From IMG/VR virus record IMGVR_UViG_2693429700_000021, positions 1-7,420 of that record: a stretch of 7,420 nt of DNA, one strand, 5' to 3'. The notes below the pieces were generated by a model. It saw only the letters and a program-made list of their open reading frames with translations. It was not told the origin of the DNA and searched no databases. How positions within the stretch are numbered: the stretch's first letter is position 1; every line of letters begins with the position of its first letter. Position numbers and translations under genes: made by a program. Positions 1 to 6,372 of the stretch are shown piece after piece. The stretch is from a virus. Taxonomy: Duplodnaviria; Heunggongvirae; Uroviricota; Caudoviricetes.

Positions 1-168
1 CTGTGAGTCATATTCATCCTGACTTTCCAGAACCATACGAATCGCCCGCTGACGGACTTCGGGGGAAAAACGAGTATTTTTAGTCATCCTGTTTACCTCT
101 TTCTCAGGGAGTTTAGTCTCCAGGATTTCCGGGGCGGTTCAACCCGCTGCTTTATCGATGCCGATAAT

Positions 169-732
169 ATGCGAGCCGTCAGTGTGCTTAACCTGGGTAC
201 TATTGATGAACCAGGTCACGCAGATAACACCGCCACCCTCAAACTGAAAAAGACAGCACCGTTTTCTGCTCTGTTGTCTGTTAATGGCGAGCGTAACTCC
301 CAGAAGTCACTGGCAGAATGGATTGAAGACTGGGCCGACTACCTTGTGGGCTTTGATGCTAATGGTGACACCATTCAGGCAACCAAAGCGGCTGCGGCAG
401 TCCGTAAAATCACAATTGAAGCAAACCAGACCGCTGATTTTGAAGACAATGACTTCAGCGGCAAACGCTCTCTGATGGAGTCTGTCGAAGCGAAAACCAA
501 AGACATTATGCCAGTGGCATTTGAATTTAAATGCGTTCCGTTTGAAGGCCTGAAAGAACGTCCGTTTAAATTACGCCTCAGCATTATCACTGGCGATCGT
601 CCTGTACTGGTTCTGCGCATTATTCAGCTGGAAGCGGTGCAGGAAGAAATGGCTAACGAATTTCGTGATCTGCTTGTTGAGAAATTCAAAGACAGCAAAG
701 TAGAAACCTTTATTGGTACTTTCACCGCCTGA
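169..732 (+). CDS. Prophage protein of unknown function, probably DUF2303/YfdQ-like; N-terminus uncertain
   Basis: 187-codon ORF from ATG 169 to the stop at 730-732. The frame is open back to position 7 but has no ATG/GTG/TTG there, and no clear Shine-Dalgarno precedes 169. It lies directly upstream of a YfdR-like gene, as yfdQ does in E. coli CPS-53/KplE1. The family name rests on remembered gene order, not on an alignment. Confidence 0.6.
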
Positions 733-745
733 TTTCATTACTGCA

Positions 746-770
746 AATGCCCCTGCGGGGGCATTTATGG
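746..770 (+). terminator. Possible intrinsic terminator or attenuator between the yfdQ-like and yfdR-like genes
   Basis: Hairpin AAATGCCCC (746-754), loop TGCG, GGGGCATTT (759-767), then AT-rich TTTAT; it lies 14 nt after the stop at 732. The U-tract is short, so it may be only a partial terminator. Confidence 0.4.
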
Positions 771-860
771 AAACGTAATTAACTCAATAATCACCGGATG
801 GTGAGAGCTTCCTTTTAGCAGAATTCAGCGCGGTGCAGCGCATATAAAGTGGAGAACGAA

Positions 861-1397
861 ATGTCATTTATTAAAACTTTTTCCGGGAAGCATTTTTATT
901 ATGACAAGATAAATAAAGACGACATCGTGATTAACGATATCGCAGTTTCCCTTTCAAATATCTGTCGCTTTGCAGGACATCTTTCACACTTCTACAGTGT
1001 CGCCCAGCATGCGGTGCTTTGCAGCCAGCTGGTGCCGCAGGAATTTGCTTTTGAAGCGTTAATGCATGATGCAACAGAAGCATATTGCCAGGACATCCCC
1101 GCGCCACTAAAACGCCTTCTTCCTGACTATAAACGGATGGAAGAAAAAATAGACGCCGTAATCCGTGAGAAATACGGGTTACCCCCGGTTATGAGCACGC
1201 CTGTGAAATATGCCGATCTCATCATGCTGGCAACCGAACGCCGCGATCTCGGGCTTGATGATGGCTCTTTCTGGCCTGTACTGGAAGGCATCCCGGCGAC
1301 AGAGATGTTCAAAGTTATTCCACTGTCGCCAGGCCATGCCTATGGGATGTTTATGGAACGTTTTAACGAGTTATCGGAGTTACGCAAATGCGCATGA
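861..1397 (+). CDS. yfdR: HD-domain phosphohydrolase, YfdR-like 5'-deoxynucleotidase
   Basis: GGAG at 851-854 lies 6 nt before ATG 861, so I prefer this start to the GTG at 849 used by the ORF track; this gives 178 aa. HD-domain signature is readable: RFAGH, SVAQHAV, ALMHDATEAY with downstream Asp residues. The N-terminus MSFIKTFSGKHFYYD matches my memory of E. coli YfdR. Confidence 0.85.
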   Translation: MSFIKTFSGKHFYYDKINKDDIVINDIAVSLSNICRFAGHLSHFYSVAQHAVLCSQLVPQEFAFEALMHDATEAYCQDIPAPLKRLLPDYKRMEEKIDAVIREKYGLPPVMSTPVKYADLIMLATERRDLGLDDGSFWPVLEGIPATEMFKVIPLSPGHAYGMFMERFNELSELRKCA

Positions 1398-1903
1398 ATG
1401 TTTTCGAAATGGAAGGGTTTCTTCACGGGAGATGTGTACCGCGAGATCTGAAAGTGAACGAAACAAACGCTGAGTACCTGGTGCGTAAATTTGCTGAAGC
1501 TGAGTCCAAGTGCGCGGCGCTGGCGGCGGAGAATGCGGGGCTGAAGTCTGGCGCTATGGACGAAATCAAGGTTATCAACCGTGGAGGGCAGGCATATTGC
1601 GTAAAAGATGGAGTGCAAGTCAATCCCATGTATGCAAGAGGGTGGAATGACTATCGCGCAAAGTCTCTGCAATCAGACACCCCAGCCACCGATGCTTTCC
1701 TGGCTGAAGTACGGGCGCAGGGCGTGGATGCTGCTATAGAAGCTGCAAAAAATCTGGTGGCCCAAGAATATGAGTATAAGGATTTCAAAGCGGCACAGAG
1801 TGATTGCTGTATGCACCCTGGTTCAGACCGGGTAGGGAAGGTTGAAATGACTGAGTGGTTAGTTGACTTTGCTGCCCAGCTTCGCAAAGGAGGCAACCAG
1901 TGA
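1388..1903 (+). CDS. Hypothetical prophage early protein, possibly Ead/Ea22-like mosaic family
   Basis: 171-aa ORF whose ATG 1388 overlaps the yfdR stop (ATGCGCATGA). It ends ...KGGNQ* with its stop overlapping the next GTG start. The internal segment TPATDAFLAEVRAQGVDAA resembles segments I recall from Ea22-like prophage proteins. Confidence 0.65.
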   Translation: MRMNVFEMEGFLHGRCVPRDLKVNETNAEYLVRKFAEAESKCAALAAENAGLKSGAMDEIKVINRGGQAYCVKDGVQVNPMYARGWNDYRAKSLQSDTPATDAFLAEVRAQGVDAAIEAAKNLVAQEYEYKDFKAAQSDCCMHPGSDRVGKVEMTEWLVDFAAQLRKGGNQ

Positions 1904-2385
1904 CTGGACATGCAGCAATCCTCGACATGTGTTGTGGCAGTCGCATGTTCTGGTTCGATAAGAATGACGACCGGGCGATATTTAGCGATATCAGAAAGGA
2001 AGAGCACACATTATGTGATGGACGACGGCTGATAATTAGCCCTGACCTGATAGCAGATTTTCGTGCATTACCATTTGCAGACGCATCGTTTCCGGTTGTT
2101 GTATTCGACCCTCCGCATCTTGAGCGTGTTGGTGATAACGCCTGGATGGGAAAGAAATATGGACGACTGAATAAAGATACCTGGCGTGATGATTTGCGGC
2201 AGGGGTTTAAAGAAGCCTTTCGGGTGTTGTGGCCACACGGCGTTCTGATTTTTAAATGGAATGAAACGCAAATACCTGTTCGCCAGATATTGGCACTGAC
2301 CGACAGAAAGCCTGTTATCGGTCAACGAACAGGAAAGGGTGACAAGACCCACTGGATTATTTTTATGAAGGAGGGCAACCAGTGA
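1900..2385 (+). CDS. Small SAM-dependent methyltransferase, probably a DNA N6-adenine/N4-cytosine type
   Basis: GTG start at 1900 preceded by GGAGG (1889-1893) with a 6-nt spacer. SAM-binding motif I-like ILDMCCGSRMFW near the N-terminus and catalytic motif IV-like VVFDPPH (the (D/N/S)PP(Y/F/W/H) class). At 161 aa there is no room for a large target-recognition domain. Confidence 0.75.
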   Translation: MTGHAAILDMCCGSRMFWFDKNDDRAIFSDIRKEEHTLCDGRRLIISPDLIADFRALPFADASFPVVVFDPPHLERVGDNAWMGKKYGRLNKDTWRDDLRQGFKEAFRVLWPHGVLIFKWNETQIPVRQILALTDRKPVIGQRTGKGDKTHWIIFMKEGNQ

Positions 2386-3035
2386 GCAAGATTGACTATC
2401 AGGCACTGCGTGAGGCGGCAGAGCGTGCAATTCCGGCAATGGAACGCCTGTTAATGTTGCCAGTTGATGATGATCTGATAAGCGAACAGGAACTTAAAGA
2501 TTACGGTGTGGATATTGATGCGCTCAACGCCTTCAAATTTCTGACCGGACCAGAAACCGTGCTGGCGCTGCTGGATGAACGGGAAAGAAACCAGCAACAC
2601 ATCAAATCACGCTACCAGGAGAACGAGGATATTGCGCTAACGGTTGGGAGGCTGCTAATCGAAAACGGCCAGCTTGTTGCCGATACGCTACGCCACTTAT
2701 CTGATAACGAAATCGACTCTGATTATTTTGCTATCACCTCAACGAATGAGAACGGTACTGAAATTGATCATGAGATGGCTATTACCGATTACGCACTGCA
2801 AGCTGCCGGAACTGTAGACGAATTGGTTGCAGCGCTGGAATCCGCAGAGAAGCGTATTGCTGAACTGGAAGCGCGGGAAGTTCAATTACCGACTCGCTAC
2901 GACCTTCGATATGGACACCCGATAAATGCAGATGAGCTACATGTCATGATACCTAAAGAAAATGGCAGTTGGCTTTACCTGATTGACCTAGAACACGCAT
3001 TACGCGTCGCTGACATTCGCATCAAAGGAGAGTGA
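2382..3035 (+). CDS. Ead/Ea22-like prophage early protein
   Basis: GTG start at 2382 overlapping the upstream TGA, preceded by GGAGGG. N-terminal MSKIDYQALREAAERA, central VLALLDERE and C-terminal AEKRIAELEAREVQLP match conserved segments I recall from the Ead/Ea22-like family. Confidence 0.7.
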   Translation: MSKIDYQALREAAERAIPAMERLLMLPVDDDLISEQELKDYGVDIDALNAFKFLTGPETVLALLDERERNQQHIKSRYQENEDIALTVGRLLIENGQLVADTLRHLSDNEIDSDYFAITSTNENGTEIDHEMAITDYALQAAGTVDELVAALESAEKRIAELEAREVQLPTRYDLRYGHPINADELHVMIPKENGSWLYLIDLEHALRVADIRIKGE

Positions 3036-3036
3036 T

Positions 3037-3552
3037 ATGGCGCTAACACACCGCGAACTCTGTCAGATTGCGTACAAGTTCCTTAAGCGCAACGGGTTCA
3101 AGGTTTGTTTTCATGACCGCTTTATAGCTGTAACCAGTACCGGAGAACAGCCAGATGCTATGGGATTCAGAAATTCAGCATCATGCCTGATAGAGGCGAA
3201 GTGTTCTCGTGCTGACTTGTTGGCAGATAGAAAAAAGCGTTTTCGTAAAAATCCGTCTCTTGGAATGGGCGACTGGCGATTCTTTATTAGTGAGCCGGGA
3301 ATTATTTCAATTGAGGATTTACCACCTGGCTGGGGATTACTTCACGTTGTTAACGGAAGAGTACGGAAAGTACATGGGTGGCCCAAGGGTAATTGCTGTT
3401 GGGGTAATCCTGACGATAAGCCATTTACTGGAAATAAGCAGGTTGAATGCGATTACATGTTATCTGCATTAAGGCGCATGGAGTTGAGAGGGCACCTTAA
3501 TGAAATATATGACGGTGTAATTGTTAATAAGAAAGAAGGAAACGCGGCATGA
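3037..3552 (+). CDS. PD-(D/E)xK nuclease-like protein of unknown function
   Basis: ATG 3037 with AGGAG 6 nt upstream. N-terminal region has an upstream Glu (RELCQ), then GEQPDAMGF and, 13 residues later, CLIEAKCS, which fits the PD...(D/E)xK restriction-endonuclease-like core. The C-terminal half is Cys/Trp-rich (GNCCWGNPDD). Confidence 0.6.
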   Translation: MALTHRELCQIAYKFLKRNGFKVCFHDRFIAVTSTGEQPDAMGFRNSASCLIEAKCSRADLLADRKKRFRKNPSLGMGDWRFFISEPGIISIEDLPPGWGLLHVVNGRVRKVHGWPKGNCCWGNPDDKPFTGNKQVECDYMLSALRRMELRGHLNEIYDGVIVNKKEGNAA

Positions 3553-3950
3553 TCACTATTACCAAAGAGCGACTACTGACAATCAAGCAGTGGCGCGAAA
3601 CATACGGACCTGATAGCAACGTTGTACTGCCAGCAGAAGAAGCGGAAGAACTGGCGCGGATTGCGCTGGCATCGCTGGAAGCAGAACCGGTGGCATGGCT
3701 GCATTCAGACAATGGCTTAGGTATTCCGGCAATAACACGGAGTAAAAACGTTGCTGACAGTTGGTTATCAAAGGGTTGGTATGTTCAGCCGCTATATATA
3801 GCTCAGCCAGTACACGTGCCGGAGGAAATGAATCTGGCACGCGCACAGAAAGAGGTGGGTTTTAATCGATATATCATGGCTGGGTATGTTGATGGCTGGA
3901 ACGCCTGCCGCGCTGCCATGCTTCAGAGCCAAGGTGGAGGCAACCAATGA
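3549..3950 (+). CDS. Hypothetical prophage early protein
   Basis: 133-aa ORF; ATGA start/stop overlap with the upstream gene. It ends GGGNQ* at the conserved junction motif. No catalytic motif recognised. Confidence 0.65.
   Translation: MITITKERLLTIKQWRETYGPDSNVVLPAEEAEELARIALASLEAEPVAWLHSDNGLGIPAITRSKNVADSWLSKGWYVQPLYIAQPVHVPEEMNLARAQKEVGFNRYIMAGYVDGWNACRAAMLQSQGGGNQ
3864..3878 (+). repeat. 15-nt exact repeat ATCGATATATCATGG, copy 1, inside the 3' part of CDS 3549..3950
   Basis: Identical 15-mer recurs at 6373-6387, with flanking similarity (TTTT before; GG..TATGTT after). Confidence 0.7.
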
Positions 3951-4258
3951 GCAATTATCTGTACTGGTCTGGCTTAGTGGCTAACATCGCGCTCATGTTG
4001 TTCGTGGCTCTTTGCATCTGGGTTTGGTTTATCTGGCCTTTTGTAGAAGCCATGAGCATAACTCGGTGCTTTATTTGCGCATCAAAGACTTCTGGATGCA
4101 AACCAACTGTAAGAGCAATTATCAGAACTTTAAAATACTGGTATCTGGATTTGCTTTTCGGCAGGGGCTGGACGCGAATTAGTAACCGCCAGTTTGAATG
4201 GGAAGGCGTCGGTAACTGGCGAATTCACAGCAGCAAAGAAACGCAGGAGGTGAAGTAA
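3947..4258 (+). CDS. Small membrane protein, hypothetical
   Basis: 103-aa ORF, ATG 3947 overlapping the upstream stop, GGAGG 6 nt upstream. Strongly hydrophobic N-terminal segment LVANIALMLFVALCIWVWFIWPFV predicts one transmembrane helix (possibly two); a Cys-containing stretch CFICASKTSGC follows. Confidence 0.6.
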   Translation: MSNYLYWSGLVANIALMLFVALCIWVWFIWPFVEAMSITRCFICASKTSGCKPTVRAIIRTLKYWYLDLLFGRGWTRISNRQFEWEGVGNWRIHSSKETQEVK

Positions 4259-4830
4259 TGAATAACTTAATGATCGACCTTGAGACGATGGGGAAAAATA
4301 AGGATGCACCGATCGTTTCCATTGGCGCGGTGTTCTTCACTCCAGAAACCGGAGACATCGGACAAGAATTCTATACGGTTGTTAGCCTGGAAAGTGCTAT
4401 GGGGCAAGGAGCTACACCTGACGGCGATACCATCCTGTGGTGGTTGAAACAGAGCTCTGAAGCACGAGCTGCAATCTGTATTGATGATACTTTGTCGATC
4501 AGCGATGCACTCTCTGAACTGAGCCATTTCATTAATCAGCATGCAGACAATACAAAATATTTAAAAGTCTGGGGTAACGGGGCCACCTTCGACAACGTAA
4601 TTTTACGTGGAGCTTACGAGCGAGCAGGACAAATCTGCCCGTGGGCGTACTGGAATGACCACGATGTACGCACGATCGTTACGCTTGGGCGTTCCATCGG
4701 ATTCGACCCCAAAATGGACATGCCTTTCGATGGCGAACGGCACAACGCCCTGGCTGATGCCCGTCATCAGGCAAAATATGTTTCCGCTATCTGGCAGAAA
4801 CTAATTCCTGCCACCAGCACAGAATTATGA
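4258..4830 (+). CDS. DnaQ-like DEDDh 3'-5' exonuclease (prophage exonuclease)
   Basis: ATG 4258 overlapping the upstream TAA (TAATG), GGAGG at 4246-4250. Exo I motif MIDLETMG (D-x-E), Exo II WGNGATFDNV and Exo III HNALADARH (H-x4-D) are all present in the expected order. Confidence 0.85.
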   Translation: MNNLMIDLETMGKNKDAPIVSIGAVFFTPETGDIGQEFYTVVSLESAMGQGATPDGDTILWWLKQSSEARAAICIDDTLSISDALSELSHFINQHADNTKYLKVWGNGATFDNVILRGAYERAGQICPWAYWNDHDVRTIVTLGRSIGFDPKMDMPFDGERHNALADARHQAKYVSAIWQKLIPATSTEL

Positions 4831-4866
4831 TTTTCCCGGGTGCAGCCGGTTTTGATGGAGAAAATT

Positions 4867-5148
4867 ATGAACACCTTGTTTTTACTGATGGCTGAATTCA
4901 ATACCCCTAACATTGAACTCTCAGCAGTTAGCCAAAAGTACTTTGGCATGAGTCCAGCCACGGCAGAAGCAAAAGCAAACGCTTGTAAGTTGCCCGTTCC
5001 AACATATCGCATCGGCACATCACAAAAAGCAAAACGTTGCATCAATATTCAGGATCTTGCGGAATACATAGACAAAAGACGAGAAGAAGGACGTATCGAG
5101 TGGGAACAGGTCAGAACAAGCAAACAGAAGGGCAAAGAACATCACTAA
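4867..5148 (+). CDS. Excisionase/recombination directionality factor-like protein, PrtN/P22-Xis-like family
   Basis: The track ORF starts at GTG 4840, but GGAG (4857-4860) sits 6 nt before ATG 4867, giving MNTLFLLMAEF..., the N-terminus typical of PrtN-family excisionases. Stop at 5146-5148, followed directly by a strong terminator. Confidence 0.7.
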   Translation: MNTLFLLMAEFNTPNIELSAVSQKYFGMSPATAEAKANACKLPVPTYRIGTSQKAKRCINIQDLAEYIDKRREEGRIEWEQVRTSKQKGKEHH

Positions 5149-5150
5149 AG

Positions 5151-5177
5151 AAAAAACCCGCCTAAAGGCGGGTTTTC
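5151..5177. terminator. Bidirectional rho-independent terminator
   Basis: AAAAAA (5151-5156), stem CCCGCC (5157-5162), loop TAAA, stem GGCGGG (5167-5172), then TTTTC. This gives a U-run on both strands, between the convergent + strand excisionase-like gene and the minus-strand 57-codon ORF. Confidence 0.75.
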
Positions 5178-5195
5178 AAAAAGCACCAGCTATGA

Positions 5196-5369
5196 TCATG
5201 CTGCTTTGCGACGACGAAGCTTACCCTGCTGCTCTTTACCAGAGACAGTAGCGTGAGTGAACGCATTAGGAGCAGCCTTCATCAGAACTTCAACAGCAGC
5301 ACCCATACCTGCGAATGCTTTCATTGTGTCGAACTTAACCTGTGGCTTGGTTGCTTTTTGATCTTTCAT
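5196..5369 (-). CDS. Small hypothetical protein (57 aa), absent from the ORF track
   Basis: My own translation of the minus strand gives MKDQKATKPQVKFDTMKAFAGMGAAVEVLMKAAPNAFTHATVSGKEQQGKLRRRKAA. ATG at 5369-5367, GGGAG 6 nt upstream on the minus strand, TGA stop at 5198-5196, and the bidirectional terminator about 20 nt downstream. Confidence 0.55.
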   Translation of the reverse strand: MKDQKATKPQVKFDTMKAFAGMGAAVEVLMKAAPNAFTHATVSGKEQQGKLRRRKAA

Positions 5370-5439
5370 AGAAAACTCCCGAGACAGTAAAGGCGTCTCT
5401 AACCCTCTCTTTAAAGCTAGCTTGTTTCGCTAACTTATG

Positions 5440-5460
5440 CCAATCGATCATGTCGATTGG
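5440..5460. promoter_or_regulatory. Perfect inverted repeat CCAATCGA-N5-TCGATTGG, candidate operator
   Basis: 8-bp arms are exact reverse complements around a 5-bp spacer. It lies about 70-90 bp upstream of the small minus-strand ORF and overlaps a -35-like TTGGCA on the minus strand. No adjacent U-tract, so it is not a terminator. Confidence 0.3.
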
Positions 5461-5565
5461 TGACATCGTTTCTTAGTAGTTTAAGCACAAAACGACTGCC
5501 ATAGATGTACCTTTAAGGTAATCTGGACGGGTATCCTACAATTTGTAGCCCCTTCTCGTCTATAC

Positions 5566-6102
5566 CTACTGAGCAAATTTAAGAAAGATATCCTGCAGCT
5601 CATCAATGACTGCAGACATCACATAACCGCACTGTTCCATGCGGAAACCAAAAGACTCGTAATACTGCACCAGTTCTGGTACTGGCTCTACAATGTGGAC
5701 AACTTTACATTCAACAGCTTTACAAAATATAAAAGCACTCATAAGAGTGAGTAAAACCATGCGCCCTTTCAATGGGTGAGATTCATCTTCTCTAGAAAAC
5801 CTTTCGATCATATGGATACGAAAGATGTTTTCTTCAACCCCATAAACACAAATTGCTGCTCCTGATGGTATTCCCTGAACCCGACCTTGCTGAACAAGTT
5901 TTATGCAGAACTCATACTTTTCTCTGGAGTTGCCATAGGTGCTTAACGCATAGTCCCATTCAAGCTCACCATAGCCACCACACAGAATCTTGTAATCATC
6001 ATCACTGAGCGGACCAACAGCAAGAGGTAAGCCGACATGATCAATAATCAACTGGATATTGTTACGTACAGATTGACCTATCTCGTCTAGGGTAAGCATC
6101 AT
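5566..6102 (-). CDS. GNAT-fold-like acyltransferase candidate, atypical
   Basis: 178-aa ORF starting with tandem ATG codons (6102-6097) and ending at TAG 5568-5566. C-terminal YYESFGF resembles the conserved GNAT beta-strand (FYxxLGF), and HPLKGRMVLLTLMSAF is a weak candidate for the acetyl-CoA-binding segment. The canonical R/Q-x-x-G-x-G/A motif is not cleanly present, so the fold assignment is tentative. Confidence 0.6.
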   Translation of the reverse strand: MMLTLDEIGQSVRNNIQLIIDHVGLPLAVGPLSDDDYKILCGGYGELEWDYALSTYGNSREKYEFCIKLVQQGRVQGIPSGAAICVYGVEENIFRIHMIERFSREDESHPLKGRMVLLTLMSAFIFCKAVECKVVHIVEPVPELVQYYESFGFRMEQCGYVMSAVIDELQDIFLKFAQ

Positions 6103-6131
6103 AGACTCTCAAGCGGAACACTAAAAATCTC

Positions 6132-6137
6132 ATTATA
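6132..6137 (-). promoter_or_regulatory. Candidate -10 hexamer (TATAAT) for the GNAT-like gene
   Basis: Exact TATAAT on the minus strand, 29 nt upstream of the ATG at 6102. No good -35 match; the palindrome ATGCCcGGCAT (6148-6158) occupies the -35 region. Confidence 0.3.
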
Positions 6138-6372
6138 TCTCATTCTGATGCCCGGCATGGATTACACCTTGAAATGAAAACACCGGGTTCCCAATAGGCT
6201 CCCACAAAGTGTATAACTACTTGTTTTTCAAAAACGATACATCCTATCGAGCATTGGTGCAACGCTAAACCGACCACTCCAGTGAACGTCAGTTTTTTCA
6301 GGCATTGCGCTGGTTTGGTTGATTTTTTGCATTTCAGAATTACCGTGCATTTTCAAATGTAGAGATTATTTT

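What the first reader, a model, noticed from the sequence alone, without database searches (positions are those of the whole stretch)
4840..5180. Excisionase-like gene ends the operon with no integrase nearby
The PrtN/Xis-like gene is the last + strand gene and is followed by a strong bidirectional terminator and then unrelated minus-strand genes. This resembles the KplE1/CPS-53 arrangement, where the directionality factor sits at one prophage end and the integrase at the other, so the attachment site (attR) may lie within about 5150-5570. Alternatively the integrase was deleted or displaced by the cargo. The track start (GTG 4840) is probably too long; ATG 4867 has the better ribosome-binding site.
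Basis: partly seen in the sequence, partly recalled or inferred. Interest (0 to 1): 0.45.

Follow-up and report, generated by a model that had tools for sequence, protein, structure and literature searches.

The report
Known RdfN excisionase at prophage end

Summary
The gene is real. Its true start is ATG 4867 (4867-5148, 93 aa). It matches Pfam PF11112 and a PHROG family named "excisionase", and a 10-bp-stem hairpin follows at 5153-5176. The window covers the integrase-distal end of an mEp460-like lambdoid prophage inserted in the 5' end of host dusA. A four-way alignment (window junction, K-12 empty site, the integrase-side junction of a near-identical prophage, and mEp460 attP) confines the crossover to 8 bp at 6247-6254. 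The two minus-strand genes after the terminator (57 aa and 177 aa) are phage cargo, also present in phage mEp460. Host DNA begins only at the dusA 5' remnant (6246-6350) and yjbM. In mEp460 the order is rdfN, cargo, attP, int, so integration places int and rdfN at opposite prophage ends. In strain 873.10 they lie about 40 kb apart. PrtN-domain proteins were shown experimentally to be the directionality factor (RdfN) of dusA-specific elements (Durand 2021), with int and rdfN lying across attP. A 76-aa V. cholerae homologue is 61% identical. The KplE1-like reading is therefore right in kind, wrong on att position, and already described. Interest is low.

The parts
1..141 (-). Terminal 141 bp of an IS3-family IS1203 copy that truncates yfdQ. 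This is context, lying upstream in the same early-left operon.
   Evidence: 100% match to the end of the annotated IS1203 in NZ_CP148401.1.
142..4830 (+). Early-left operon of an mEp460-like lambdoid prophage: yfdQ', yfdR 849-1397, 1388-1903, methyltransferase 1900-2385, Ea22 2382-3035, 3037-3552, 3549-3950, 3947-4258, and a 3'-5' exonuclease 4258-4830.
   Evidence: ORFs. Pfam and PHROG hits. Two collinear blocks at about 97% identity with mEp460, window 142-1491 and 4242-6353; the middle of the operon is mosaic.
4857..4860 (+). Shine-Dalgarno GGAG, 6 nt upstream of ATG 4867.
   Evidence: Read from the sequence.
4867..5148 (+). rdfN: a PrtN-domain recombination directionality factor (excisionase), 93 aa, the last gene of the operon.
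5153..5176 (.). Hairpin terminator shared by the converging transcripts. It has a 10-bp stem, with a U6 tail on the minus strand and a U4 tail on the plus strand.
5120..6176 (-). Exchangeable cargo (moron) cassette lying between rdfN and the att arm.
   Evidence: Homology to PhiR47_1 and PhiR40_1 stops at about 5118 and resumes at about 6177-6186. Those phages carry PanT/PanA or YafO/YafM in this slot.
5196..5369 (-). 57-aa cargo protein (phrog_2741, mEp460 gp24 homologue), function unknown.
5566..6099 (-). 177-aa GNAT-fold cargo protein (phrog_4350, mEp460 gp23 homologue).
6177..6246 (.). Conserved phage att arm on the rdfN side. It carries two GGGARCC repeats (6186-6192, 6197-6203), which are candidate arm-type integrase sites.
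   Evidence: Conserved in phages with different cargo. Five of six GGGARCC copies in 15.6 kb of mEp460 fall within 235 bp around attP.
6247..6254 (.). att core. This 8-bp segment (ATGCTCGA on the minus strand) is the only stretch where the crossover can have occurred. It sits within an imperfect 21-bp direct repeat at 6242-6262 (17 of 21 positions identical to the other junction).
   Evidence: Four-way alignment. Unique in the window. The PhiR47_1 record, as deposited, ends at window position 6248.
6246..6350 (-). Displaced host 5' end of dusA: 35 native codons, then 5 phage-derived codons and a stop at 6228-6230.
   Evidence: 100% identical to K-12 dusA nt 1-104. PGAP annotates it as a pseudogene.
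6713..7420 (-). Host gene yjbM (DUF2713), the chromosomal flank.
   Evidence: PF10897, E 1e-166. K-12 gene order is yjbM then dusA.

Best explanation
The window is the integrase-distal end of an mEp460-like lambdoid prophage integrated in the 5' end of the host tRNA-dihydrouridine synthase gene dusA. The gene at 4867-5148 encodes an RdfN-type (PrtN-domain) recombination directionality factor. It is the last gene of the repressor-controlled early-left operon, so it is made only after induction. It then binds the att arms and directs the dusA-specific tyrosine integrase to recombine the two junctions and excise the prophage. In the circular phage the order is rdfN, cargo, attP, int. Integration at attP therefore puts int beside the restored dusA at one prophage end and rdfN at the other. 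The phage supplies a surrogate dusA 5' end and promoter beside int. The original dusA 5' end is left in the window, joined at the 8-bp core 6247-6254 to a 70-bp phage arm. Next comes an exchangeable cargo cassette (a GNAT-fold protein plus a 57-aa protein), and then the terminator. Shown here: gene identity, junction position, gene order in the phage and in intact lysogens, and cargo status. Taken from the literature: that PrtN-domain proteins are the RDF of dusA elements. Inferred: induction-dependent expression, the DNA sites bound, and activity of this particular copy.
Confidence: 0.87

Rival explanations
1. The protein is a PrtN-like transcriptional activator (as for pyocin genes in P. aeruginosa) that switches on late or lysis genes, and is not an excisionase.
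For: The Pfam family is named after the pyocin activator PrtN. Farrugia 2015 left its role in dusA islands open. The fold also resembles MerR-type regulators.
Against: RdfN was shown to be necessary, and with Int sufficient, for excision of a dusA element. The gene occupies the xis position at the end of the early-left operon, next to attP. The prophage already carries a Q-type antiterminator for late genes. A secondary regulatory role is not excluded, since Cox and TorI have one.
Confidence: 0.06
2. The RDF is orphaned: in this genome the integrase end of the prophage has been lost or moved by rearrangement, so the gene is a relic of a trapped prophage.
For: No integrase or dusA 3' part turned up in 156 kb of the source record. 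The prophage runs into a chimeric jumble of phage fragments at the record end. IS1203 interrupts yfdQ upstream.
Against: The jumble looks like an assembly artefact rather than biology. It contains dozens of phage gene fragments, many of only about 100-300 bp. The nearest relatives all have int at the other end. In any case this would describe the state of one copy. It would not explain why int is not adjacent, which is the native layout.
Confidence: 0.2
3. One reading: the att site lies at 5150-5570, just after the terminator, and everything to the right is host DNA or unrelated cargo that displaced the integrase.
For: Gene orientation switches at the terminator.
Against: The free phage mEp460 carries window 4242-6353 as one contiguous block at 96.9% identity, so 5150-6246 is phage DNA. 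Identity to the K-12 empty site begins only at 6247.
Confidence: 0.01

Closest known systems
RdfN of dusA-specific integrative elements (IMEVchUSA3, Vibrio cholerae; Durand et al. 2021, PMC8409611)
   Same: Both have the PF11112 domain. The window protein is 61% identical to a 76-aa V. cholerae homologue. Both elements insert in the 5' end of dusA and supply a new dusA 5' end. In both, int and rdfN lie on opposite sides of attP.
   Different: Here the carrier is a lambdoid phage, and rdfN is the last gene of the early-left operon, presumably under the phage repressor and SOS control. In the Vibrio element it sits behind an AcaCD-responsive promoter. The protein here is 93 aa with a longer C-terminal helix. 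It is transcribed towards the junction, and a cargo cassette lies between it and the arm.
Enterobacteria phage mEp460 gp25 'excisionase' (NC_019716)
   Same: The locus is about 97% identical at DNA level, with the same neighbours: exonuclease, gp24, gp23, attP and integrase gp22.
   Different: The mEp460 annotation uses the longer GTG start (102 aa). The function there was assigned by annotation only.
KplE1/CPS-53 TorI-IntS module of E. coli K-12 (Panis et al. 2010, PMC2951348)
   Same: The RDF is the last gene of a yfdP-yfdQ-yfdR-type early operon at one prophage end. The integrase sits at the other end with its own promoter in the att region, so int and RDF transcription are uncoupled.
   Different: The RDF family differs: the window protein matched only PF11112 in Pfam. 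The integrase and target differ (argW tRNA versus the coding 5' end of dusA). KplE1 has no gene-restoring surrogate 5' end.
PrtN, pyocin gene activator of Pseudomonas aeruginosa
   Same: Same Pfam domain; both are small DNA-binding proteins.
   Different: PrtN activates transcription at pyocin promoters and is not linked to an integrase or an att site. The context here is a recombination module.
Lambda Xis-Int
   Same: Small winged-helix excisionase fold, and a position at the distal end of the PL operon next to attP.
   Different: In lambda, xis and int are adjacent on the same side of attP and are co-transcribed. Here attP and a cargo cassette separate them.

Membership tests
RdfN (PrtN-domain RDF of dusA-specific elements) | PF11112 PyocinActivator domain in a small protein (about 75-100 aa) | tested here: met
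   81.8 bits against a cut-off of 24.2, covering profile positions 1-73 of 74. The protein is 93 aa.
RdfN (PrtN-domain RDF of dusA-specific elements) | Element integrated in the 5' end of dusA, flanked by an imperfect direct repeat of about 21 bp | tested here: met
   The four-way alignment places the crossover at 6247-6254. The two junctions are identical at 17 of 21 positions over 6242-6262. I could not compare this with the published logo because figures are not held.
RdfN (PrtN-domain RDF of dusA-specific elements) | Partner dusA-specific tyrosine integrase on the other side of attP, next to a restored dusA | tested here: met
   Met in mEp460, strain 873.10 and five other genomes. The integrase matches PF00589. 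It was not found in the fetched parts of the source assembly.
RdfN (PrtN-domain RDF of dusA-specific elements) | Required, and with Int sufficient, for excision | not testable with these tools
   Shown for IMEVchUSA3 only.
Excisionase / MerR-like winged-helix fold | Structural similarity to solved RDFs | tested here: met
   [not shown]
TorI / AlpA-type RDF (KplE1) | Sequence membership in the TorI/AlpA family | tested here: not met
   hmmscan against Pfam at E<=0.01 returned only PF11112. The resemblance to KplE1 is one of layout, not of family.
KplE1-type recombination-module layout | int and the RDF at opposite prophage ends, with the int promoter region overlapping att | tested here: met
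   Opposite ends are shown. GGGAACC repeats lie 20-55 bp upstream of the int start codon in mEp460. The promoter itself was not mapped.

The most novel reading that the evidence does not exclude
The stretch between rdfN and the att arm (about 5120-6176) may be a dedicated swap slot for small toxin- or defence-like modules. Related phages carry PanT/PanA or YafO/YafM there. The window's occupant is a GNAT-fold protein that no Pfam, NCBIfam or PADLOC model recognises, plus a very conserved 57-aa partner. This pair could be an undescribed toxin-antitoxin or anti-phage pair. In the lysogen it may additionally be read from the displaced host dusA promoter, because the dusA 5' remnant points into it with no terminator-like hairpin found in between.
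Probability: 0.2. Interest if true: 0.45.

Novelty: already known. Interest (0 to 1): 0.14.

Why it matters
It matters little for discovery. The RDF family, the dusA target, the surrogate 5' end and the layout with int and rdfN across attP have all been published. This phage family sits in about 13% of complete E. coli genomes. The practical value lies in annotation. The RefSeq name 'pyocin activator PrtN family protein' should be read as an excisionase. The prophage boundary belongs at 6247-6254, inside dusA. The two hypothetical genes before that boundary belong to the phage.

Tried and rejected
I walked the source record NZ_CP148401.1 from the prophage across the record origin to find the integrase end. 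The last 75 kb or more is a jumble of phage gene fragments and displaced chromosomal blocks. tblastn and blastn found no integrase and no dusA 3' part in the 156 kb fetched. The source genome was also not among the 60 best integrase-side matches. Whether this copy still has its integrase therefore stays open. A tRNA search of the window found nothing, so this is not a tRNA-targeting element. Rfam at gathering thresholds found nothing. PADLOC and NCBIfam gave no hits for the RDF or the two cargo proteins. The repeat search gave no convincing RdfN operator. Only the GGGARCC repeats stand out, and two copies in the window are not significant on their own (67 of 200 shuffles reach two). Their clustering in mEp460 is what suggests a function. 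I considered calling the cargo a GNAT toxin-antitoxin pair. I rejected this as a claim because the gene order (large gene first, then a gap of about 196 nt) differs from the known TacT/AtaT modules, as I recall them, and the fold match is generic GNAT.

Full report
**Observation.** The window carries a run of + strand genes typical of the early-left operon of a lambdoid phage: yfdQ', yfdR, a methyltransferase, Ea22, and an Rv2179c-like 3'-5' exonuclease at 4258-4830. The last + strand ORF is 4840/4867-5148. It matches Pfam PF11112 (PrtN) at 81.8 bits, against a gathering score of 24.2. It also matches PHROG 1300, whose category is "integration and excision: excisionase", at E 1e-39. Five bases after its stop codon lies a 10-bp-stem hairpin at 5153-5176. 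Its free energy is -18.1 kcal/mol, z = -4.2, and none of 200 shuffles folds as well. The hairpin is followed by six U on the minus-strand transcript but only four on the plus-strand transcript. The window holds no tRNA gene, no Rfam family and no tyrosine integrase.

**Start codon.** Fifteen of sixteen homologues begin MNT(L/M/A)F(L/M)LMA, aligned with ATG 4867. These range from 97% to 39% identity and include proteins from Citrobacter, Serratia and Vibrio. A GGAG lies 6 nt upstream, and PGAP uses the same start.

**The attachment site.** I aligned four sequences:
- the window junction;
- the K-12 empty site;
- the integrase-side junction of strain 873.10, whose rdfN-side junction is 99.5% identical to the window;
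- mEp460 attP.

The window is identical to K-12 up to ...CCAATGCTCGA and follows mEp460 afterwards. The 873.10 integrase-side junction follows mEp460 up to ...CCTATGCTCGA and K-12 afterwards. The exchange can only have occurred within the shared ATGCTCGA. This is window 6247-6254, and it occurs once in the window. Around it the two junctions are identical at 17 of 21 positions (6242-6262). That fits the semiconserved 21-bp repeat reported for dusA islands, although I could not see the published logo. The deposited PhiR47_1 genome ends at window position 6248.

**The other end.** In 873.10 the order is as follows:
- pspG;
- an intact dusA;
- a divergent 365-aa tyrosine integrase (PF00589), 98.4% identical to mEp460 gp22;
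- dinI;
- about 40 kb of prophage;
- rdfN, the 57-aa gene and the 177-aa gene;
- the dusA remnant and yjbM.

The restored DusA differs from the K-12 protein at 9 of its first 30 residues, because the phage supplies that part. The phage copy of the dusA 5' end is 83% identical to the host copy over 107 bp. Five further genomes appear in both hit lists, with the two matched blocks 23-42 kb apart. The integrase type occurs in about 730 of 5,426 genomes. Some copies appear as separate circular records of about 44 kb.

**Caveats.** The window's own copy may be defective. The end of an IS1203 copy abuts a truncated yfdQ at window 141/142. This join lies 204 bp upstream of where the RefSeq record has the insertion. 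I could not find the integrase end in the source assembly, whose tail is a patchwork of phage fragments. No experiment exists for this E. coli phage protein itself.

**Verdict.** The feature is real and ordinary. It is a member of the published RdfN family in its published layout. The proposed att position and the reading of the downstream genes as flank do not hold.

Noticed in passing
[not shown]
   Followed up: partly
window ~5120-6176; L016 4798-6120; L017 4798-5948: The slot between rdfN and the att arm is exchangeable. Otherwise collinear phages carry PanT/PanA (PhiR47_1) or YafO/YafM (PhiR40_1) there. The swap also replaces the last ~10 codons of rdfN, giving 90-aa and 93-aa variants.
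   Followed up: partly
window 6186-6192 and 6197-6203; L002 10468-10700: GGGARCC repeats cluster on both arms of attP: five of the six copies in 15.6 kb of mEp460 fall within 235 bp. Three of them lie 20-55 bp upstream of the integrase start codon. That would allow integrase autoregulation, as described for KplE1 intS.
   Followed up: partly
window 6103-6356 (-): The displaced dusA 5' end, and presumably its promoter, point into the GNAT cargo gene. The scan found no terminator-like hairpin between them. A perfect TATAAT also lies ~35-40 nt upstream of the GNAT start codon (near 6134-6139 by my reading of the sequence). It is conserved as TACAAT in Citrobacter.
   Followed up: partly
window 1-345: Window 1-141 is the end of IS1203, fused directly to yfdQ sequence at 142. 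In the RefSeq record of the matching strain the same IS end joins yfdQ 204 bp further downstream. The window therefore differs from that record by the IS position, which points to another isolate, another assembly version or a rearrangement.
   Followed up: partly
NZ_CP148401.1 5,141,579-5,218,873 (L004, L014, L015): The last ~77 kb of this 'complete' chromosome record is a mosaic of truncated phage gene fragments, many only about 100-300 bp long. Just upstream of it lie displaced chromosomal blocks (trpR next to P2-like tail genes, then flk-fabB). This is most likely an assembly artefact.
   Followed up: no
L008 and L009, 6001-6258: In Serratia prophages a 60%-identical PrtN-domain gene is again the last gene of the early operon. 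There it abuts cutC rather than dusA, so this RDF family is not restricted to dusA-targeting integrases.
   Followed up: no
L007 10001-14827: The V. cholerae element carrying the 76-aa RdfN homologue encodes an OLD-family ATPase/TOPRIM protein followed by a UvrD-type helicase, immediately downstream. This pair resembles a Gabija defence system.
   Followed up: no
window 5432-5452: The palindrome CCAATCGA-CATGA-TCGATTGG lies in the 196-nt gap upstream of the 57-aa gene and is largely conserved in the Citrobacter copy. It may be an operator or an RNA hairpin.
   Followed up: no
H63 NZ_CP081704.1, H65 NZ_CP081794.1, H72 NZ_CP142787.1: Records of 43.7-55.6 kb, deposited as separate replicons alongside a chromosome, carry the same integrase plus a dusA fragment. 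They are probably excised circular forms of the phage that were assembled as plasmids.
   Followed up: no
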